A DNA stretch of 41,227 nucleotides, taken from an uncultured bacterium. Its GTDB lineage: Bacteria; Fidelibacterota; Marinisomatia; Marinisomatales; UBA2128. Positions 22 to 6,769 of this stretch are shown in pieces (within the stretch, counting starts at the first letter, position 1; each line of letters begins with the position of its first letter). The position numbers and the translations under genes were made by a program. Below the pieces are notes generated by a model. It was not told the DNA's origin. It worked only from the letters and a program-made list of their open reading frames with translations, and did not search any database. Where the stretch lies: positions 1-41,227 of the forward strand of contig CAZHRR010000003.1 of assembly GCA_964534955.1 (NCBI GenBank), in the 5' to 3' direction.

Positions 22-606
22 ATGGTATATCAAAAGTTGAAAAATATTGAACCTCTGTTATTCTCGTATCGGGAAGTAGCAAAGGTCTTGAATATCCAAT
101 TATCATCAGCGAAGCTACTTTGTCACCGTTACCAGAAACAGAAGTATTTCGTGAGATTAAAAAGGGATGTCTATATTCTTGCTGAACGATGGAATTATTT
201 ATCCGCACTGGAATTATTTCAGATCGCAAATCGACTGCAAGTACCTTCTTACATTTCTTTAACAACTGCTCTTTCCTATTATGGTTATTCTACACAGATT
301 CAGCAGGGATTTTTTGAATCTGTTGCAATAAAACGCACTTGGAAGAGAAACATTGAATCCACCATTTTCAGTTATACACGCATCTCTGATAAATATTACT
401 TCGGGTTTCGCAGGATGAACGGCATTTTTATAGCTGAACCGGAAAAGGCGTTGACTGATGCATTATATCTGACATCTATTGGAAGGTATGGTCTTGACTT
501 TTCTGCACTGGAAATGTCAAAGATTGATTTGAAAATAGTGGATACATTATTAAACAAATATCCGGAAAAAACAAAATCAACATGGGATAATTATGCAAGA
601 CCTTAA
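22..606 (+). CDS. Type IV toxin-antitoxin AbiEi-family antitoxin / transcriptional regulator
   Basis: N-terminal wHTH-like region; PSYISLTTALSYYG and AEPEKALTD motifs typical of AbiEi-like antitoxins; overlaps the downstream nucleotidyltransferase toxin gene. Confidence 0.8.
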   Translation: MVYQKLKNIEPLLFSYREVAKVLNIQLSSAKLLCHRYQKQKYFVRLKRDVYILAERWNYLSALELFQIANRLQVPSYISLTTALSYYGYSTQIQQGFFESVAIKRTWKRNIESTIFSYTRISDKYYFGFRRMNGIFIAEPEKALTDALYLTSIGRYGLDFSALEMSKIDLKIVDTLLNKYPEKTKSTWDNYARP

Positions 607-1258
607 GCTTCATGAACAATTTGAAATTGAAGTCCTCGATTACTTAAACAGTCACCGAATACTGGATCATCTTATATTTGGCGGGGGGACTTCACTACGC
701 TTGTGTCATGAATTAAACCGCTATTCCATTGATCTTGATTTCTATCTAAAGAACCCGGCTCAAATGGACACAGATCAACTGTTCATCCGCTTTCAATCTG
801 TCATAGAACATGAATATATACTGACGGATACACAGGATAAATACAGAACGCTCTTATTTGAATTCAGGAGTGACCGTTATCCAAGCCGGTTAAAAATTGA
901 GATCAATAAGAGCGCTGTTTTTACCGATTTTCAACAAACGATCGCTTTTTCTCCATACTCAACACGGCAGGTTCTGTTAAATGTGTTATCCCTGGATCAA
1001 ATGATGGAAAATAAAGTAGCTGCCTTTTTAGACAGAAAGGAAGCCAGGGATGCGCATGATATAGAATTCCTTGTCCGGCGCGGGATACAGCTTCCTAAGG
1101 ATAAAAACGTGTTGATTCAAATGGGGAAGAAATTACACTCACTTACACTAAATGATATCCGCGTTAAACTGGGATCGTTATTAACTGACGAAATCAGGCA
1201 GTATTACGTTACCCATGGCTTTGAGTTTTTAATTCAGCATATTCAGCAAAATAAATAA
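593..1258 (+). CDS. AbiEii/AbiGii-family nucleotidyltransferase toxin
   Basis: FGGGTSL...RYSIDLDF motif and KVAAFLDR..ARDAHDI motif; 14-bp overlap with the antitoxin gene. Confidence 0.88.
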   Translation: MQDLKLHEQFEIEVLDYLNSHRILDHLIFGGGTSLRLCHELNRYSIDLDFYLKNPAQMDTDQLFIRFQSVIEHEYILTDTQDKYRTLLFEFRSDRYPSRLKIEINKSAVFTDFQQTIAFSPYSTRQVLLNVLSLDQMMENKVAAFLDRKEARDAHDIEFLVRRGIQLPKDKNVLIQMGKKLHSLTLNDIRVKLGSLLTDEIRQYYVTHGFEFLIQHIQQNK

Positions 1259-1300
1259 TCTATAAATGGGTTTCTTCCTGTCACTACCAGAAGATAGGTG

Positions 1301-1370
1301 GGCATCACCTGCCTCGCACCTTGATCGACCGAAAGAGAATGAGGGGTGTATGTTAAGAGGGGGTGATGTC
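1301..1370 (+). other. Long imperfect hairpin that sequesters an RBS and ATG of a 27-codon sORF (1366..1449)
   Basis: GGCATCACCT (1301-1310) pairs with GGGTGATGTC (1361-1370); GCACCTT (1316-1322) pairs with GGGGTGT (1343-1349), using G-U pairs. Confidence 0.35.
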
Positions 1371-1587
1371 TGAGAACAGTTACCGTAGAAATGCCCAAAT
1401 TACGAGGCGACTTCAAAATCCAAAGTTAACTGAACAAATAATGACCTGAAAACTTCCCCAAGACATTTTTAAATTAGTCTGGAAAGATTTACTTCTCTCA
1501 TACAGTGAAATAGATAATAGATTTGCCAGGAAGACCAAGTTATATTTACAAAGCGAATAAAACGGTCTTTAAAGAGGGGGAATAATT

Positions 1588-2229
1588 ATGATGAAGCAAT
1601 TCGTGTTTTGTGTTTTGGGGATAATACCGTTAATGCTTTATGCACAAATTGACTACAACAGTCAGATCCAGTCTATCTTTAATGCGAATTGTATCAATTG
1701 CCATGGATCATCCGGTGGACTCAGTCTAACCTCATACGACAATTTGATGACAGGAGGGAATCACGGTGAGGTGGTAACACCCTTCGATGCGGATAACAGC
1801 ATTCTTGTGCAGAAACTACAGCCCAATCCTCCCTTTGGAGACCGTATGCCCAGAAACAATCAATCTTATTTTGATGATCATCCTGATGAATTGCAGTTGA
1901 TTATCGATTGGATAAATGAAGGAGCATCTGAGTTTATCTCAGTAACCGCCAACGTAGAAATACCAGGCTCATTCGCCATTTTAGAGTCCTATCCCAATCC
2001 GTTCAACGCCGCCGTGACCATAACATTTTCAGTCCACCAGATGATGGATCTGGAACTTGAGGTTGTCGATATTCTGGGACGAAGAGTAACTATTCTGGCA
2101 CGAGGTGTGACTGACCCAGGTCGTCATCGGGTTATATGGCTGGCGGAGGACATCTCCAGTGGTCTCTACTTTGCCCGACTTAATGCAGATGGATGGTCTT
2201 CCACCGCTAAGTTGCTTTTGCTAAAATGA
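1588..2229 (+). CDS. Secreted monoheme c-type cytochrome (planctomycete cytochrome c-like) with T9SS/Por-type C-terminal sorting domain
   Basis: Signal peptide ending LYA-Q; CINCH heme motif; RMP and WINEGA domain signature; C-terminal YPNPFN...DILGR.V...SSGLYF...KLLLLK; RBS AGAGGGGG. Confidence 0.8.
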   Translation: MMKQFVFCVLGIIPLMLYAQIDYNSQIQSIFNANCINCHGSSGGLSLTSYDNLMTGGNHGEVVTPFDADNSILVQKLQPNPPFGDRMPRNNQSYFDDHPDELQLIIDWINEGASEFISVTANVEIPGSFAILESYPNPFNAAVTITFSVHQMMDLELEVVDILGRRVTILARGVTDPGRHRVIWLAEDISSGLYFARLNADGWSSTAKLLLLK

Positions 2230-2630
2230 TGCGTCTTGGAGGTTGGCTGGAAGGCACTATCATCCTTGGAATCCTGACAGGTTGTACGGACATAGGCAGC
2301 GGACCTCCTCCGGATGACCTTACTTTTTCAGATGATGTCCAGGTCATCTTCGATCACAATTGTACTACTAGCTGTCATGAAGGAGTGAATGCAACAGGAG
2401 GCCTCAGTCTTACCTCTGGAAAAAGCTACGCTAATCTCGTGAACGTTCCCTCTTCTTATGCCGGATTGCTTCGTGTGGAGCCGGGTAATGCCGATAGCTC
2501 GTTGCTTTATTTGAAGGTGATTGGTTATCCTCAAACTGGCGTCAGGATGCCTTTGGACGGTACGACACTCTCGAGTATGCAGATTTCAGCAATCAGGACG
2601 TGGATCGATGAAGGTGCTAAGAACGACTAA
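2226..2630 (+). CDS. Lipoprotein c-type cytochrome with atypical CX3CH motif; paralog of the upstream cytochrome domain
   Basis: Lipobox ILTG-C; CTTSCH; shares GGLSLTS..Y.NL, P.(D/N)AD.S.L..K, RMP and WI.EGA with 1588..2229. Confidence 0.72.
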   Translation: MMRLGGWLEGTIILGILTGCTDIGSGPPPDDLTFSDDVQVIFDHNCTTSCHEGVNATGGLSLTSGKSYANLVNVPSSYAGLLRVEPGNADSSLLYLKVIGYPQTGVRMPLDGTTLSSMQISAIRTWIDEGAKND

Positions 2631-3714
2631 CGTCTTCTATTTCCTGCTGATTATCTTTTCGGTGCTGCCGGAAACCGTCCATTCTGTACCCCGGCTGGCG
2701 GTACAGAATGGATTTTCTTGTGTGACCTGTCATGTGAATCCAGCTGGAGGTGGTCTGAGGAATGAATACGGTTCATCGATAGTATCATTGGATGAACTTC
2801 CATTAAAGCCCTCGTCGAAGCATCCGGTATTCACAGGAGCTCTCTCCAATCATCTTCGGATTGGTGCTGACATTCGACTGCAGACCTATGTTCACAGTAA
2901 AGAGGAAACCCAGTGGGAGAGGGTCTCTTTCCCCATGCAGTTGGAGTTCTACGGCCACTGGCTGATTACCAGGAATCTTCAGGCTTATGCCGCCGTGGAT
3001 GCTCTTTGGGATAACACTGAGGGGTGGGTCAATCTGCAGCCAGCCAACCTCGAAGGATATATTAGAGCAGGCAGAATGACGCCTCATTTTGGGTTGGCTT
3101 TAGACGACCATACTACCTTCGTCAGAGGAGGGAACATCAAGCTGAAGAACGGTCTGAATGCGGAAGGGATGATCTTTTCGTCCTTGCGTTCATCTCCTGT
3201 CACAGTGGAAGTGGGTATAAACGCGGGAGATTTCTTCATCACTGGAAGTGTTTCGGACGGCTATATTTCTGGAAAAACAGGAAGTCATACCTTCGGAGGG
3301 CGTGTGGAATATTCCGGGGCGCTTCTAAAGAATCAGGCGCTGGCAGGCTGTTCTGCAATACTGGAAGATGACCTTATCCTGGCAGGAATGTTTGGAGGTA
3401 TTTCAAGAGGTCCATTCACTTGGATGGGAGAGGTGGACATAGCGGACAATTGGGTAGGAGACGGTACTTCTCTGGCGTCGTTCAATGAGTTAAGTTACAG
3501 CCTGGTTCAAGGCATTACTCTTACAGCCAGATACGATTTTTTCGATGAGGATATCACCTACCTTCAAAATGCACTTGGACGAGTGGCTGCGGGCATTGAG
3601 TTCTTTCCTTTGCCATATGTGGAAATCCGAAGTCAGGTTCGTGTAACTAAGGTGTCAGGTGAAGATGAAAGTCAAAGTCCTGAGTTGTTGGTTCAGCTTC
3701 ATCTCTGGTTTTGA
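2608..3714 (+). CDS. Cytochrome c-porin fusion (Cyc2-like architecture): N-terminal monoheme plus outer-membrane beta-barrel
   Basis: Start reassigned to ATG 2608 (MKVLRTT, signal peptide). VPRLAVQNGFSCVTCH follows the cleavage site; alternating beta-strand pattern; C-terminal VQLHLWF beta-signal. Confidence 0.7.
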   Translation: MKVLRTTNVFYFLLIIFSVLPETVHSVPRLAVQNGFSCVTCHVNPAGGGLRNEYGSSIVSLDELPLKPSSKHPVFTGALSNHLRIGADIRLQTYVHSKEETQWERVSFPMQLEFYGHWLITRNLQAYAAVDALWDNTEGWVNLQPANLEGYIRAGRMTPHFGLALDDHTTFVRGGNIKLKNGLNAEGMIFSSLRSSPVTVEVGINAGDFFITGSVSDGYISGKTGSHTFGGRVEYSGALLKNQALAGCSAILEDDLILAGMFGGISRGPFTWMGEVDIADNWVGDGTSLASFNELSYSLVQGITLTARYDFFDEDITYLQNALGRVAAGIEFFPLPYVEIRSQVRVTKVSGEDESQSPELLVQLHLWF

Positions 3715-3727
3715 AAAGGGGGAATAA

Positions 3728-4090
3728 ATGAGGTTAACAGTCATAGGTATTATTACGGTGTTTCTGTTTTCAGGGATAGTTCAGGCACAGGATCTGAAAA
3801 ACGTGCAGGTACTCCCGTTTAATAGCACCCGCGAGATTGTACCATTCATGAAAAAAATGGCGATGAACCTGGATGTAAAGTGCAATTACTGCCATAATAT
3901 GAAGGACAAGTCACTGGATGAGATTAAGCACAAGCGCATCGCCCGGGAGATGATGCGAATGGTGAAGCGCATCAACAAGGAATATATGACTCCGTTGAAG
4001 ATTGATGCTATAACATGCTGGACTTGCCATCGCGGAACTACCGCTCCGCAGCGCAGTGCCGAAGACACGCGGAAACCACACAACCATTAA
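3728..4090 (+). CDS. Periplasmic diheme c-type cytochrome (reaction-centre cytochrome PufC-like small family)
   Basis: Signal peptide ending VQA-Q; LKNVQVL; CNYCH and CWTCH; K.IAREMMRM..RIN motif; RBS AGGGGG. Confidence 0.78.
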   Translation: MRLTVIGIITVFLFSGIVQAQDLKNVQVLPFNSTREIVPFMKKMAMNLDVKCNYCHNMKDKSLDEIKHKRIAREMMRMVKRINKEYMTPLKIDAITCWTCHRGTTAPQRSAEDTRKPHNH

Positions 4091-4107
4091 TTTTATGGGA
4101 ATACTTT

Positions 4108-5481
4108 ATGGATACGAAGCCGGTTATTACTTACGCTGAAGAACACAGTCAGAAATTTATTGAAGATCTGGTAGAATTTGTAGAGATCCCAAGCATTTCC
4201 AGCAGCTCAGAGCATAAAGGAGAGGTTCACCGATGTGCTGAGTTTCTGCGGGACCAGATGCTCCAGGCCGGACTCCTTCGAGCAGAGCTGATTGAGACAA
4301 CAGGACACCCTATAGTTTTTGGCGAATGGAACGGAGCTGAGGGGAAGCCAATTATCCTGATATATGGACATTACGATGTACAGCCTGTTGATCCATTGGA
4401 GCTGTGGGAGACACCGCCGTTCGAGCCGGATGTGCGGAACGGGCGGATGTACGGCCGCGGGACTGTGGACGATAAAGGACAGATTTACATTCACTTGAAA
4501 GCTATCGAATCGTGGCTGGAAGTAAATGGTGGCTTACCACTGAACATCAAGTTTATCGCTGAAGGTGAAGAGGAAATTGGAAGTAAAAATCTGTGTGAAT
4601 TTCTTAGGAATAATCGCGAACTGTTGAAAGCTGATGTGTCGGTTATTTCTGATACGCCAATGTTCCAGAAGAGAATGCCCTCCATATGCTACGGTCTCCG
4701 GGGACTGGCGTACTTTCAACTGAATCTCCGCGGATCGAAGCAGGACCTTCATTCAGGAACATTTGGCGGCGCTGTAAAGAATCCTATTCATGCCTTAGCC
4801 GAGATGATCACTAAGCTCAAAGACGAAGCCGGGCGCATTACTATCCCCGGATTCTATGATGATGTGCTCCCTGTCAGCGATGTAGAGCATGCAGACCTCT
4901 CAGCCCTGCCTTTTGATGAGGAGATGTACCGTATGGAAGTGGGTGCACCCGCACTGTACGGCGAGGAAGGATACTCAGTCTTGGAAAACCTCTGGGCTCG
5001 ACCGACGCTGGATGTGTGCGGCATCTGGGGTGGATTTCAGGGAGAGGGAGCCAAAACGGTTATTCCGGCGGAAGCACATGCCAAGGTGAGTATGCGGCTT
5101 GTGCCTAACCAGACACCGGAGAGGGTTGGTGATCTTTTTGAAGAATACATAAGGGTAATTGCACCTCTGGAAATGGAAGTTACGGTGGAACAGTTACACG
5201 GGGGTGACGGTTTCATTGCCGATATGTCTCATCCTGCCTTCGACGCCGCAAGGAAGGCTCTACAGAAGGGATTTGGTAGAGAGGCTGTGCTCATTCGTGA
5301 GGGCGGCTCTATTCCGTTCGTCCAGACTTTAGTCGATACCCTGAAAGTGCCATGCCTCCTGATCGGCTTTGGACTGCCGGATGAAAACGCTCACGCACCT
5401 AACGAATGGATCGATCTGGAGAATTATCAGTTGGGGATATTAAGTTCAATCTATCTTTACGAAGAACTTTCGCATGATTAA
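4108..5481 (+). CDS. M20 family metallo-dipeptidase
   Basis: YGHYDVQP, GRGTVDDKGQ, EGEEEIGS, DLHSG, GGSIP and NAHAPNE motifs; start reassigned to ATG 4108. Confidence 0.9.
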   Translation: MDTKPVITYAEEHSQKFIEDLVEFVEIPSISSSSEHKGEVHRCAEFLRDQMLQAGLLRAELIETTGHPIVFGEWNGAEGKPIILIYGHYDVQPVDPLELWETPPFEPDVRNGRMYGRGTVDDKGQIYIHLKAIESWLEVNGGLPLNIKFIAEGEEEIGSKNLCEFLRNNRELLKADVSVISDTPMFQKRMPSICYGLRGLAYFQLNLRGSKQDLHSGTFGGAVKNPIHALAEMITKLKDEAGRITIPGFYDDVLPVSDVEHADLSALPFDEEMYRMEVGAPALYGEEGYSVLENLWARPTLDVCGIWGGFQGEGAKTVIPAEAHAKVSMRLVPNQTPERVGDLFEEYIRVIAPLEMEVTVEQLHGGDGFIADMSHPAFDAARKALQKGFGREAVLIREGGSIPFVQTLVDTLKVPCLLIGFGLPDENAHAPNEWIDLENYQLGILSSIYLYEELSHD

Positions 5482-6769
5482 GATGAAGTACATTTTTCTG
5501 ACAACCTGGCTGTGGATTACCTGTCTTTCCGTGACTGTTCAAGCGAAGCAGCAAGATCTTACTCTGATTTCCGATATTTCAGTGGAAGGGCATAGTGTAA
5601 CTGAGGAGTATATCATCCTCCGGGAGATTCAACATCCTGTGAATGCTCCTTATGACTCGGTCTTGGCTGCAGAAGACAGGAACAGGATCGACAACCTCGG
5701 GATTTTCTCCGAAGTGAAGATTCGGCTGCTGCCCAATGGTGATGGAACTCAAACACTGATATATAGAGTAGTGGAATCCTGGCGGCTTTTCCCAATACCT
5801 ATTATCATGTATGAGGAGGATGTCGGGTGGTCTTTCGGCGGGATGGTGCTCTTGAAAAATTTTAGGGGCAGGAACGAAAACCTGTCGGCGTTTGCCTCCT
5901 TTGGACGTCGGAATGTAGGCGGTATCGGGTTTGATGATCCTTGGGTTTTGGGCGATCATGTTTCATTTCGCGGACATTTTTTCTATAAGATGACTGAGCA
6001 CTTGTTTCTCCCTCATGATTATCGTGAATTGGACTTGGAGACAACTGTTGGCCGCTACTTTGGTTATCACTGGAAAGTGTGGGGTACAGTGAGCATTGAG
6101 CAGAGACGGATTGATTTTTTTTCTGAAGAAAAGCAGGATGTTGAACATCGCTATTTCCAGACGAAGTTTCAGCTGATTTACGACACACGTGATCTGTACA
6201 TAGATCCTTCAGAAGGAATCTACATTGACACCCAGCTTCGTCCAGAACTGGGGCTAAACGAAGATTCACCAAATTTCACTGAATTGGACATCACTGCCAG
6301 TGCTTTCAAATCCATTATTCCAGGGAAAAGGAAGTGGGTTGCAGGTGTGTCATTTACTTTGCACCACTATTTTGGTGAGAGCATTCCCTACAAAGTTTTT
6401 TCTGTGGGAGGGGTAGAGTCTATTCGTGGATGGGAAGTGCTTGACTCAACTCTTTATGCGAAAGAACCGTTCCGTTCTGGATTGAATTTTTATTATGCTT
6501 CGGCTGAACTGCGTCAGACTGTGATTCCAAAACGGCTGACGCACTTCGGAACCGAATTCGGGTTGATTCTCGTTGAGTTCTTTGATTTGGGTGCCGCCGC
6601 CATTAACTTTTCTGATATGATGAGCAAGAAACCCATAATGGGTACTGGCATCGGGATACGTTTCTATATTCCAGGTAATATCTTGTTTAGAGTAGATTAT
6701 GGGGTTAGTCTTTATGAACGTGCGTGGGGTGTTCCCAAATGGCACATATCTGTAGGGCACAAGTTTTAG
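5474..6769 (+). CDS. Omp85 (BamA/TamA) family outer-membrane protein with one POTRA domain
   Basis: Signal peptide; POTRA-like ISVEGHSVTEEYIILRE...LGIFS; NFRGRNE; GGVESIRGW (VRGF-like); GIGIRF; terminal F. Confidence 0.82.
   Translation: MIKMKYIFLTTWLWITCLSVTVQAKQQDLTLISDISVEGHSVTEEYIILREIQHPVNAPYDSVLAAEDRNRIDNLGIFSEVKIRLLPNGDGTQTLIYRVVESWRLFPIPIIMYEEDVGWSFGGMVLLKNFRGRNENLSAFASFGRRNVGGIGFDDPWVLGDHVSFRGHFFYKMTEHLFLPHDYRELDLETTVGRYFGYHWKVWGTVSIEQRRIDFFSEEKQDVEHRYFQTKFQLIYDTRDLYIDPSEGIYIDTQLRPELGLNEDSPNFTELDITASAFKSIIPGKRKWVAGVSFTLHHYFGESIPYKVFSVGGVESIRGWEVLDSTLYAKEPFRSGLNFYYASAELRQTVIPKRLTHFGTEFGLILVEFFDLGAAAINFSDMMSKKPIMGTGIGIRFYIPGNILFRVDYGVSLYERAWGVPKWHISVGHKF

What the first reader, a model, noticed from the sequence alone, without database searches (positions are those of the whole stretch)
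1588..4090. Candidate novel outer-membrane electron conduit: sorted surface cytochrome + lipoprotein cytochrome + cytochrome-porin + diheme cytochrome
Seen: four tightly coupled genes (4-bp overlap, 23-bp overlap, 13-bp gap), each with a heme-c motif and a different targeting signal (C-terminal sorting domain, lipobox, beta-barrel signal, plain signal peptide). Known: porin-cytochrome conduits (MtrCAB, PioAB, Cyc2) move electrons across the outer membrane. Inference: a low-heme chain running from the cell surface through the barrel to the periplasm. I do not recognise this combination as a described system.
Basis: partly seen in the sequence, partly recalled or inferred. Interest (0 to 1): 0.85.

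Follow-up and report, generated by a model that had tools for sequence, protein, structure and literature searches.

The report
Cyc2-like cytochrome-porin operon, FoxE-like partner
A marine Marinimicrobia genome carries a small operon built around a distant, previously unsorted relative of the iron-oxidising outer-membrane protein Cyc2, teamed with small cytochromes related to two other proteins of iron-based and photosynthetic electron transfer, which suggests a second widespread kind of single-haem electron gate in bacterial outer membranes.

Summary
The four genes, their overlaps and their targeting signals are real. Gene C (2608-3714) is not a new invention. It is a full-length but distant homologue of Cyc2, the fused monohaem cytochrome-porin (hhalign 99.3%, E 4e-20). 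Its model is a 16-strand barrel resembling OprO/OprP. It nevertheless fails both published Cyc2 sequence motifs (0 of 185 family proteins). It sits on its own side of one fully supported branch and co-exists with canonical Cyc2 in the same genomes. Genes A and B are one-domain relatives of FoxE, the Fe(II) oxidase (profile E 5.5e-12). Gene D is a two-haem PufC-type cytochrome (NF033196). The pair B-C is the conserved core: 28 of 29 close loci and 42 of 54 metagenome loci, against 2 of 119 canonical Cyc2 loci. D is confined to this order and class. A, the T9SS-sorted copy, is optional (10 of 25). The most likely role is a high-potential route carrying electrons from a soluble reductant such as Fe(II) into the periplasm. 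Activity, haem attachment and complex formation are untested. I rate it a new variant of a known kind.

The parts
1588..2229 (+). Gene A: secreted monohaem cytochrome, made of a signal peptide, a FoxE-like/PSCyt1 domain and a T9SS type A sorting domain. It is an accessory paralogue of B.
   Evidence: ORF. PF07635 scores 29.3 bits against a cut-off of 22, and PF18962 32.3 against 27. TIGR04183 scores 30.9 against 23. It aligns with B orthologues over the whole haem domain. Such a gene is present in 10 of 25 close loci with enough flank.
1690..1704 (+). CINCH haem c motif of A (aa 35-39).
   Evidence: Read directly from the sequence.
1990..2214 (+). T9SS C-terminal sorting domain of A (aa 135-209).
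   Evidence: The PorU sortase is present in the genome at 721 bits against a cut-off of 420.
2226..2630 (+). Gene B: lipoprotein with one FoxE-like/PSCyt1-like haem domain. It is the conserved partner of C.
   Evidence: ORF. PF07635 E 0.0023, 18.9 bits, below the cut-off of 22. The profile of 21 orthologues hits FoxE 5mab at E 5.5e-12 and hydrazine synthase alpha 5c2v at E 8.1e-7. It lies upstream of C in 28 of 29 close loci, 16 of 20 distant loci and 42 of 54 metagenome loci.
2283..2285 (+). Lipobox cysteine of B (C20 in L-T-G-C), followed by a conserved C-[ST]-D-[LM]-G.
   Evidence: C20, G24 and D22 are invariant or nearly invariant in alignment A3.
2361..2378 (+). CTTSCH of B (aa 46-51), a CX3CH variant haem motif.
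   Evidence: C46, C50, H51 and M108-P109 are invariant in 21 orthologues, and the spacer runs from 2 to 6 residues.
2608..3714 (+). Gene C: fused monohaem cytochrome and 16-strand porin, a member of a distinct clade of the Cyc2 superfamily.
   Evidence: hhalign against canonical Cyc2 gives Prob 99.25-99.27%, E 4e-20 to 5e-20 over 332-341 columns. The barrel alone gives 96.9% and the N-terminus alone 97.9%. The AF2 model has pLDDT 86.2 and 16 strands. Foldseek finds general porins, with OprP and OprO at TMq 0.59-0.61.
2719..2733 (+). CVTCH haem motif of C (aa 38-42), about 11 residues after the predicted signal-peptide cleavage site. The upstream motif SVPRLAVQN stands in place of AXPXFAR[Q/K][T/Y].
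   Evidence: C38, C41, H42, P45 and G47 are invariant in 38 sequences. The published motif comes from Keffer et al. 2021.
2854..3708 (+). Beta-barrel of C (aa 83-367, 16 predicted strands), ending in the aromatic terminus ...HLWF.
   Evidence: The family's last residue is F, L or Y in 170 of 185 proteins.
3728..4090 (+). Gene D: periplasmic dihaem cytochrome of the non-photosynthetic PufC-like family, with CNYCH at 3881-3895 and CWTCH at 4016-4030.
   Evidence: NF033196 scores 75.8 bits against a cut-off of 70. PF02276 gives E 2.7e-16. PDB PufC chains score down to E 1.1e-15. It is the only copy in the genome. It lies downstream of C in 27 of 31 close loci, 1 of 18 distant loci and 2 of 49 metagenome loci.

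Best explanation
The locus is one operon built around a divergent Cyc2-type protein. C is an outer-membrane 16-strand porin whose first ~55 mature residues carry a single c-type haem. Its constant partner B is a lipid-anchored, one-domain relative of the Fe(II) oxidase FoxE, probably with His/Met ligation through the invariant M108. In this order and class the operon adds D, a soluble two-haem PufC-type cytochrome. In some genomes, including this one, it adds A, a second FoxE-like cytochrome that the type IX secretion system would put on or outside the cell surface.

The most likely working is as follows. A small soluble reductant, most likely Fe(II), reaches the haem of C in or at the pore. 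Electrons pass to B and/or D in the periplasm and then to a high-potential sink such as a haem-copper oxidase. A may extend the reach outward.

Shown here: the gene anatomy, the homologies, the fold, the conserved gene order, and the presence of haem-attachment and T9SS machinery. Inferred: haem attachment, the order of the carriers, the direction of flow, the substrate and the sink.
For: C is homologous to canonical Cyc2 over its whole length. Against 93 motif-defined Cyc2 proteins from named genomes (among them Mariprofundus, Sideroxydans, Gallionellaceae and Acidithiobacillus), hhalign gives Prob 99.25%, E 4.9e-20, 341 columns. The tool's own hhalign on 25 of them gives 99.27%, E 3.6e-20. 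The barrel alone gives 96.9% (E 1.5e-10) and the N-terminus alone 97.9% (E 4e-13), while the reversed-barrel control gives 0.3%.

The model has 16 strands at pLDDT 86.2. The highest TMq values among the listed PDB matches belong to OprO and OprP (0.59-0.61). These are the structures Keffer et al. name for Cyc2 (passages).

The profile of B and its orthologues matches both haem domains of FoxE (5mab) at E 5.5e-12. FoxE is described as the dihaem cytochrome that takes electrons from Fe(II), with His/Met ligation (PMC10654088, passages). D meets NF033196 and matches PufC chains at E 1e-15.

Gene order is conserved. B lies upstream of C in 28 of 29 close loci, 16 of 20 distant loci and 42 of 54 metagenome loci. 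D lies downstream in 27 of 31 close loci. The control set of 119 canonical Cyc2 loci has a B-like neighbour in only 2 loci and a D-like neighbour in none. In other cassettes the partners are also redox proteins, namely an EB_dh haem-b domain protein and a c4-like dihaem cytochrome.

The genome has three Ccm-type PF01578 genes, PorU and about 50 CTD proteins.

In 301 genomes of the phylum, 85 of the 93 genomes with C also have COX1, against 113 of the 208 without C. The families without COX1 (0/33, 0/30, 0/9) also lack C.
Against: No activity, haem attachment or complex is shown.

C fails both published Cyc2 motifs, and 0 of 185 family proteins carry either. It lies across a fully supported branch from canonical Cyc2. 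It co-exists with canonical Cyc2 in 4 of 5 FCB genomes tested and in a congener, which points to a function that differs at least in part. Keffer et al. themselves call the function of divergent Cyc2 clusters uncertain.

The FoxE link is seen only with the profile. Single-sequence searches of A and B against PDB find nothing at E <= 0.01. The fold search of the B model is weak, with hydrazine synthase at E 0.02 and FoxE at E 0.9-2.9.

The window's own genome shows no COX1 and no cytochrome bd. All three congeners do have COX1, so this may be an assembly gap in a 242-contig MAG.

The COX1 association rests on related genomes that are not independent.

In 3 FCB genomes C stands alone, with no B within 1.5 kb.

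From recall, not from any call: open-ocean Fe(II) is very scarce, which makes it doubtful as an energy source.
Confidence: 0.5

Rival explanations
1. The parts are the same but the flow is outward. The module passes respiratory electrons from the periplasm through C, and A where present, to a soluble extracellular acceptor such as chelated Fe(III), Mn(III/IV), humic quinones or oxygen species. It would serve as a small electron outlet beside the large multihaem systems of this genome.
For: The genome holds 23 ORFs with two or more CxxCH motifs, including 30-, 17- and 13-haem proteins, so extracellular electron transfer looks like part of its way of life. No O2 reductase was found in the window's own genome. 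A is predicted to be surface-sorted, which suits contact with outside acceptors.
Against: The closest characterised relatives (Cyc2, FoxE, PufC) all take up or carry electrons at high potential. C goes with COX1-bearing lineages and was found in none of the 72 sampled genomes of the three families that lack COX1. A is missing from most loci. The missing oxidase in this genome is probably an assembly gap.
Confidence: 0.15
2. The module serves iron acquisition or handling and not energy. Fe(II) entering the pore is oxidised at C and B so that it can be captured in the periplasm, or Fe(III) is reduced at the surface for uptake. This would suit an iron-starved marine heterotroph.
For: It is a small single-copy operon among housekeeping genes, with an M20 peptidase, an Omp85-family protein, DUF885, SecDF and aspartyl-tRNA synthetase nearby, and not among respiratory genes. 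It is widespread in presumably heterotrophic genomes of the phylum (93 of 301). Cyc2-type pores are thought to admit dissolved Fe2+.
Against: None of the neighbour families recurring in the 20 longer loci that I clustered, as far as I annotated them, is an iron transporter or iron-binding protein. The only metal-related neighbour is a divergently placed P-type ATPase in one family. Three or four cytochromes are more than a ferroxidase step needs.
Confidence: 0.15
3. C is mainly a solute porin of the OprO/OprP kind. Its N-terminal haem segment would act as a plug, a sensor or a relic, and the neighbouring small cytochromes would work on an unrelated periplasmic substrate.
For: The fold search returns only ordinary porins. 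ESM Atlas neighbours with any Pfam family carry Porin_O_P. Haem-less porin-like ORFs in the same genome give weak matches.
Against: The haem motif and its surroundings are the best-conserved part of the family. C38, C41, H42, P45 and G47 are invariant in 38 sequences, and 173 of 185 proteins carry CxxCHxxPxG. The partner gene is a cytochrome in 42 of 54 unrelated metagenome loci.
Confidence: 0.07

Closest known systems
Cyc2, the fused cytochrome-porin of Fe(II)-oxidising bacteria (Acidithiobacillus Cyc2, Mariprofundus Cyc2PV-1, Leptospirillum Cyt572)
   Same: Both have a signal peptide and a single CXXCH within about 15 residues of the mature N-terminus. Both have a Pro/aromatic/Ala segment at the same 11-residue distance before the first Cys, and a fused 16-strand barrel with OprO/OprP-like fold. 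Homology is detectable over the full length and for each domain separately.
   Different: C lacks the defining AXPXFAR[Q/K][T/Y] and PXL motifs, which occur in 0 of 185 family proteins. The family has P-R-F-A-x-x-x-G-x-x-CxxCH-V-N-P-x-G-G-G instead, plus its own invariant residues (R90, M110, H168, R173). It is shorter, with a median of 379 aa against 440. It is separated by a branch with support 100. It co-exists with canonical Cyc2 in the same genomes. It has a PSCyt1/FoxE-like neighbour, which canonical loci have in only 2 of 119 cases.
FoxE, the dihaem c-type cytochrome Fe(II) oxidase of Rhodobacter ferrooxidans SW2 (PDB 5MAB); Pfam PSCyt1 (PF07635)
   Same: A and B share the domain signature CxxCH...GLNL...Y..L..G...PGD..S....MP....WI..GA with both FoxE haem domains, including the conserved Met. 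A passes the PSCyt1 cut-off.
   Different: A and B have one domain where FoxE has two. B is a lipoprotein with a CX3CH motif (a CX2-6CH spacer across orthologues). A has a T9SS sorting domain. No foxY- or foxZ-like neighbour was noted. The similarity is found only with the profile and is weak by fold search. The other solved relative is the C-terminal haem domain of hydrazine synthase alpha.
PufC, the tetrahaem cytochrome of photosynthetic reaction centres, and NCBIfam NF033196 (non-photosynthetic c-type cytochromes)
   Same: D aligns with the first two haem-binding segments of PufC, each with a Met-containing helix before CXXCH, and passes the NF033196 cut-off.
   Different: D has two haems where PufC has four and only 120 aa. 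No reaction-centre genes were seen in the window. It is a soluble periplasmic protein with a plain signal peptide.
Porin-cytochrome complexes MtrCAB, MtoAB and PioAB
   Same: All are an outer-membrane barrel plus c-type cytochromes encoded side by side for electron passage across the outer membrane.
   Different: Those systems use a 26-strand barrel sheathing a separate decahaem cytochrome (passage). Here a 16-strand barrel is fused to one haem, and the partners carry one or two haems.

Membership tests
Cyc2 (as defined by Keffer et al. 2021, mBio, PMC8406198) | Signal peptide and a single CXXCH near the N-terminus | tested here: met
   C has CVTCH at aa 38-42 and one motif only. The Cys, Cys and His are invariant in 38 sequences.
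Cyc2 (as defined by Keffer et al. 2021, mBio, PMC8406198) | AXPXFAR[Q/K][T/Y] motif upstream of CXXCH (used by the authors as an inclusion filter) | tested here: not met
   The window has S-V-P-R-L-A-V-Q-N. None of the 185 family proteins holds P.FAR[QK][TY]...C..CH, while 159 of 185 keep a relaxed P-x-[FYLIW]-[ASTG] at the same distance.
Cyc2 (as defined by Keffer et al. 2021, mBio, PMC8406198) | PXL motif about 4 residues after CXXCH | tested here: not met
   0 of 185 family proteins have it, and 173 of 185 have CxxCHxxPxG instead. Among canonical proteins, 86 of 93 have PxL 3-5 residues after the His.
Cyc2 (as defined by Keffer et al. 2021, mBio, PMC8406198) | Fused 16-strand beta-barrel porin resembling OprO/OprP | tested here: met
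   The AF2 model has 16 strands at pLDDT 86.2. OprP 2o4v gives TMq 0.59 and OprO 4rjw/4rjx give 0.60/0.61.
Cyc2 (as defined by Keffer et al. 2021, mBio, PMC8406198) | Length of at least 365 aa | tested here: met
   368 aa from the ATG at 2608.
Cyc2 superfamily (homology) | Significant profile-profile similarity to canonical Cyc2 over both the cytochrome segment and the barrel | tested here: met
   with a reversed-barrel control at Prob 0.3%.
Cyc2 (function) | Fe(II) oxidase activity and a haem potential near +200 mV | not testable with these tools
   This needs expression and biochemistry.
PSCyt1 (PF07635) / FoxE-like haem domain | Match to the family model above its cut-off | tested here: met
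   A scores 29.3 bits against a cut-off of 22 (met). B scores 18.9 bits against 22 (below the cut-off). B's orthologue profile hits FoxE at E 5.5e-12. B-like proteins of another family of the phylum pass at 26.7 bits.
T9SS type A cargo | C-terminal sorting domain above the cut-off, and a PorU sortase in the genome | tested here: met
   For A, PF18962 scores 32.3 against 27 and TIGR04183 30.9 against 23. PorU NF033707 scores 721 bits against 420.
NF033196 (c_type_nonphoto, PufC-like) | Score above the curated cut-off, with two CXXCH motifs | tested here: met
   D scores 75.8 bits against 70 and has two motifs.
MtrCAB/PioAB-type porin-cytochrome complex | A barrel of about 26 strands with a separate decahaem cytochrome inside | tested here: not met
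   C has 16 strands and one fused haem. Its neighbours have one or two haems.

The most novel reading that the evidence does not exclude
C represents a very large sister family of Cyc2 that has not been recognised as such. A profile search gave 4165 cluster representatives at E <= 0.001 and 956 at E <= 1e-30. The published motif filter excludes this family by construction. Typically paired with a FoxE-type monohaem cytochrome, it would be a second, widespread kind of single-haem outer-membrane redox gate. Its presence in a third of sampled Marinimicrobia (SAR406) genomes, and its link with haem-copper oxidases, would mean that abundant marine heterotrophs take electrons from dissolved Fe(II) or another small reductant at the cell surface. 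In some of them a T9SS-displayed cytochrome would be part of the chain.
Probability: 0.3. Interest if true: 0.8.

Novelty: new variant of a known kind. Interest (0 to 1): 0.6.

Why it matters
Cyc2 is the main genetic marker used to find iron-oxidising bacteria in genomes and metagenomes, and the published definition relies on a sequence motif. This locus shows a large homologous clade that fails that motif. The clade has its own conserved partner, a relative of the iron oxidase FoxE, and occurs in Fidelibacterota (Marinimicrobia), Ignavibacteriota and Bacteroidota, often beside canonical Cyc2.

If the clade oxidises Fe(II), present surveys undercount iron oxidisers, and abundant marine heterotrophs would take part in iron redox cycling. 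If it handles another substrate, it marks where Cyc2-type pores changed function, which bears on how far Cyc2 hits can be trusted as markers. In either case the B-C pair is a compact, testable two-protein system.

Tried and rejected
Complex prediction for C (27-368) with two haems and B (20-134), each with its alignment: no verdict, score 0.01 against a mark of 0.32, and controls not run. This is evidence neither for nor against binding.

Expression: no RNA holder was listed for window 1500-4200.

Promoter and terminator scan of 1200-4400: 6 promoter-like sites against 5.4 expected, and 0 terminator-like sites against 3.2 expected. This was uninformative.

tblastn of family member P0018 against plasmids at E <= 1: no match.

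Single-sequence PDB searches of A and B: nothing at E <= 0.01. Only the orthologue profile reaches FoxE.

Foldseek of the B model (pLDDT 80.4): no match at E <= 0.001. The top rows were hydrazine synthase alpha (E 0.02, TMq 0.54) and FoxE (E 0.9-2.9, TMq 0.23-0.35). These are the same two entries as by sequence, but the support is weak.

The nos_propeller search of the own genome found nothing, and its control rang nowhere, so it is uninformative.

I first read the absence of COX1 and cytochrome bd in the own genome as a sign of an anaerobe. I dropped that reading when all three congeners turned out to have COX1.

I considered MtrCAB/PioAB membership and rejected it on strand number and haem count.

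I first took the B orthologues that my CxxCH/CxxxCH counts showed as lacking a motif to be haem-free. The alignment showed longer spacers, CX4CH and CX6CH, with the Cys, Cys and His kept.

Literature: five searches listed no paper that links Cyc2 with Marinimicrobia/Marinisomatota/SAR406/Fidelibacterota, or PSCyt1/FoxE-like genes with Cyc2. Only the top 12-25 rows of each listing were seen. Supplementary files were not opened. Keffer et al.'s Fig. S6-S8 and their figshare tree and alignment could show whether any members of this clade were included, and I could not see them. I could not run the FeGenie Cyc2 HMMs.


Full report
OBSERVATION. The window is contig C3 of a 2.57-Mb, 242-contig genome. 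The nearest database relatives of gene C are labelled Candidatus Marinimicrobia or Neomarinimicrobiota. A and B overlap by 4 bp, B and C overlap by 23 bp, and a 13-bp gap separates C and D. A has CINCH, C has CVTCH, and D has CNYCH and CWTCH. B has CTTSCH, which is CX3CH and not CXXCH.

The targeting signals are also as described. A carries a T9SS type A sorting domain above both curated cut-offs. B has a lipobox (L-T-G-C20). C has a signal peptide and an aromatic C-terminus. D has a plain signal peptide.

WHAT EACH GENE IS. A matches PSCyt1 (PF07635) above its cut-off, and B matches it just below. Aligned together, A and B orthologues share one domain. A profile of 21 B orthologues (A3) hits only two solved families at E <= 1e-4. 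One is FoxE (5mab), at E 5.5e-12 and over both of its haem domains. The other is the C-terminal haem domain of hydrazine synthase alpha, at E 8.1e-7.

[quoted passage not shown] The link is visible only at profile level. Single-sequence searches of A and B find nothing. A fold search with the B model (pLDDT 80.4) ranks the same two entries first but weakly.

In B orthologues the two Cys, the His and an M-P pair are invariant, while the Cys-Cys spacer varies from 2 to 6 residues. CX3CH and CX4CH are known haem c motifs in Desulfovibrio cytochromes c3; this is recalled and comes from no call.

D passes NCBIfam NF033196, the non-photosynthetic relatives of PufC. It matches reaction-centre cytochromes in PDB at E down to 1.1e-15 over their first two haem segments. 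It is single-copy in the genome.

GENE C IS A DISTANT CYC2. C has no Pfam or NCBIfam match. Its family is large. The word-indexed search gave 37 hits. The exhaustive profile search gave 4165 representatives at E <= 0.001 and 956 at E <= 1e-30, of which I saw the best 150. ESM Atlas neighbours are unnamed clusters from Fidelibacterota, Ignavibacteriota and Bacteroidota.

The AF2 model (pLDDT 86.2, pTM 0.83) is a 16-strand barrel preceded by a short helical N-terminal segment that holds the haem motif. Foldseek returns general porins. OprP and OprO have the highest query-normalised TM-scores among the listed rows (0.59-0.61). Keffer et al. 2021 (passages) describe Cyc2 as a signal peptide, one CXXCH, a 16-strand porin with structural likeness to OprO/OprP, an AXPXFAR[Q/K][T/Y] motif upstream and a PXL motif downstream of the haem site, and a length of at least 365 aa.

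To test homology directly I fetched canonical Cyc2 genes with a degenerate DNA pattern of that motif. They include Mariprofundus, other Zetaproteobacteria, Sideroxydans, Gallionellaceae, Acidithiobacillus, Chlorobiaceae, Nitrospira defluvii and Ralstonia. From 117 loci with the motif in frame I kept 93 ORFs of at least 365 aa.

The results of that test:
- The family HMM finds 87 of the 93 at E <= 1e-3, though at only 20-54 bits.
- Profile against profile gives Prob 99.25%, E 4.9e-20 over 341 columns, covering nearly all of both profiles.
- The tool's own hhalign on a 25-sequence subset gives 99.27%, E 3.6e-20.
- The barrel alone (96.9%, E 1.5e-10) and the N-terminal segment alone (97.9%, E 4e-13) each match. 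A reversed barrel does not (0.3%).

C is therefore a true homologue of Cyc2 in both of its parts.

C NEVERTHELESS BELONGS TO A SEPARATE CLADE. Four observations support this.
- None of the 185 family proteins I hold has the strict upstream motif or PXL. 173 have CxxCHxxPxG, which none of the 93 canonical proteins has. The family consensus is A-L-P-R-F-A-x-x-x-G-x-x-CxxCH-V-N-P-x-G-G-G-x-R-N-x-Y-G, and R90, M110, H168 and R173 are invariant. Keffer et al. removed sequences lacking the motif before building their tree, so this clade would have been filtered out.
- On a FastTree of 119 rows, the two sets fall on either side of one branch with support 100. The rows were 70 family members and 49 canonical proteins. 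The family set was the window protein, the hits of 340-440 aa with a haem motif, and every fourth of the rest. The canonical set was every second protein plus named ones. All other rows were left out. The groups were defined by how they were found, so this shows separation and not rooting.
- The two kinds co-exist. Four of five FCB genomes picked because they hold a canonical Cyc2 also hold a family member: Ignavibacteriaceae 1.6e-96, Melioribacteraceae 8e-82, a Bacteroidetes MAG 4e-52 and Kapabacteria 3e-33. Marinilabilia salmonicolor does not.
- In the window's phylum the canonical profile finds 56 of 301 genomes at E <= 1e-5 (a few of these are only weak or partial matches), including a congener but not the window's genome (local check).

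GENE ORDER. Within the phylum, 93 of 301 sampled genomes (63 of 180 high-quality ones) have C at E <= 1e-20, usually once. It is missing from some whole families (0/30, 0/33, 0/30).

- Close loci. In 32 loci of the same order and class, own locus included, a B-like gene lies directly upstream in 28 of 29 loci with enough flank. A D-like gene lies downstream in 27 of 31. An A-like gene (haem domain plus T9SS tail) is present in 10 of 25.
- Distant loci. In 20 more distant loci of the phylum that I picked from the list, B-like is upstream in 16 of 20, D downstream in 1 of 18 and A in 0 of 20. There B can be longer, with two Ig-like domains before a PSCyt1 domain that passes its cut-off. Another cassette type reads EB_dh haem-b domain protein, c4-like dihaem cytochrome, B-like, then C. 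It also occurs as a second copy in a congener.
- Metagenome loci. In 120 loci found by the family's own DNA motif, 72 carry a C gene of at least 150 bits. Of 54 with at least 450 nt upstream, 42 have a B-like gene directly upstream. D follows in 2 of 49.
- Control. The 119 canonical Cyc2 loci (858 kb) have a B-like hit in 2 loci and a D-like hit in none (tblastn).
- Counter-example. In three FCB genomes C stands alone within 1.5 kb.

The conserved unit is therefore B-C. D is a feature of this order and class, and A is an optional duplicate of B.

GENOME BACKGROUND. The genome has three PF01578 genes (two CcmF-sized and one CcmC-sized) and no ResB, which indicates System I haem attachment. It has PorU and about 50 proteins with the sorting domain. 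A crude ORF count finds 23 ORFs with two or more CxxCH motifs, including 30-, 17-, 17-, 17- and 13-haem proteins on other contigs. Four ORFs match the molybdopterin oxidoreductase family.

No COX1 or cytochrome bd was found in it. All three congeners have COX1, so I treat this as a probable assembly gap. Across the 301 genomes the counts are C+COX1+ 85, C+COX1- 8, C-COX1+ 113 and C-COX1- 95. The three families without any COX1 also lack C, yet many of them carry canonical-type Cyc2 (10/33, 6/30, 7/9). These genomes are related, so the association is a lead and not a test.

HOW IT MOST LIKELY WORKS. A 16-strand pore with one haem cannot bridge the membrane by itself. As argued for Cyc2, the substrate must come to the haem. 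I therefore read C as a gate at which a small soluble reductant, most likely Fe(II), gives up an electron. B, and in this lineage D, then carry the electron on through the periplasm to a high-potential sink.

Three things support this reading. C, B and D each have their closest characterised relatives in high-potential electron uptake or transfer. The partners in other cassettes are also redox proteins. C goes with oxidase-bearing lineages. A would add a haem on the outer face where it is present.

Everything beyond anatomy, homology and gene order is inference. I put 0.5 on this reading as a whole, and more, about 0.75, on the weaker claim that the operon is an outer-membrane redox module of some kind. 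The rivals are outward flow to soluble acceptors, iron acquisition in place of energy, and a plain porin with a vestigial haem segment. They are listed with their tests.

NOVELTY. Several things appear to be undescribed, as far as five literature searches of limited reach show. These are the separate large clade that fails the published motifs, its regular pairing with a FoxE-like monohaem cytochrome, the PufC-type partner in Marinimicrobia, and the T9SS-sorted paralogue. I could not see the supplementary motif logos or the figshare tree of Keffer et al., nor run FeGenie, and either could show that part of this clade is already counted under 'Cluster 3'.

LIMITS.
- The complex prediction gave no verdict.
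- No RNA runs were listed.
- ORF calling in my scripts was crude (stop-to-stop or first start codon), so the neighbour counts are lower bounds.

Noticed in passing
window 22-1258 (+): Directly upstream of the operon lies a pair of overlapping genes. The second (593-1258) is an AbiEii-type nucleotidyltransferase toxin (PF08843, E 3.7e-21). The first (22-606) has no Pfam match and could be its antitoxin partner.
   Followed up: partly
G000 contigs C20, C40 and C1 (outside the window): The same genome holds clusters of very large multihaem cytochromes. By a crude ORF count there are ORFs with 30, 17, 17, 17, 13, 11 and 11 CxxCH motifs, and 23 ORFs with two or more. This points to a separate, large extracellular electron-transfer apparatus.
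   Followed up: no
G000 whole genome versus congeners G001-G003: No haem-copper oxidase (COX1) or cytochrome bd was found in the window's genome at 97% marker completeness. All three genomes of the same genus have COX1 at E 1e-131 to 1e-143. The cause is either a real loss or, more likely, a missing contig.
   Followed up: partly
L170 (G003:C78, second copy in a congener); also L161-L163, L168, L169: A second cassette type reads EB_dh haem-b domain protein (PF09459, E 2.6e-24), a c4-like dihaem cytochrome of about 320 aa, a B-like gene, then the C-family porin. In L168 and L169 a 420-430 aa protein with a Big_2 domain and two CxxCH motifs follows C.
   Followed up: partly
L129 (Bacteroidetes MAG, contig SCSM01000045.1): Here a Cyc2 with the canonical motif gives the highest score of all canonical proteins to the C-family HMM (54 bits). 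It has PSCyt1-like neighbours, one with similarity to A's T9SS tail. It may be an intermediate form, and it met another long branch in the tree.
   Followed up: no
Phylum families f26, f28 and f30: Families of the phylum with no COX1 hit in any sampled genome (0/33, 0/30, 0/9) and no C-family gene often carry canonical-type Cyc2 (10/33, 6/30, 7/9). So the two paralogues have nearly opposite distributions with respect to oxidases.
   Followed up: partly
window 2283-2300 and B orthologues (alignment A3): The residues after the lipobox cysteine of B are conserved as C-[ST]-D-[LM]-G. D22 is nearly invariant and G24 is invariant. This may be a sorting signal or a contact site. Which membrane face B occupies is unknown.
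   Followed up: no
Metagenome loci such as L217, L218, L232, L267 and L287: Several contigs carry ORFs of only about 80-85 aa that match just the N-terminal haem segment of the family at about 50 bits. They could be stand-alone mini-cytochromes, split genes or frameshifted assemblies.
   Followed up: no
L155-L160, L164, L172 (families f24 and f29): In eight loci of the phylum (seven from family f24, one from f29) a heavy-metal P-type ATPase (HMA plus E1-E2 ATPase domains) is encoded divergently, directly upstream of the B-like/C pair.
   Followed up: no
window 5474-6769 (+): An Omp85-superfamily protein (PF01103, E 4.7e-23) lies two genes downstream of the operon, after an M20 peptidase. The closeness to a beta-barrel gene may be coincidence, and I did not check whether it is conserved.
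   Followed up: no
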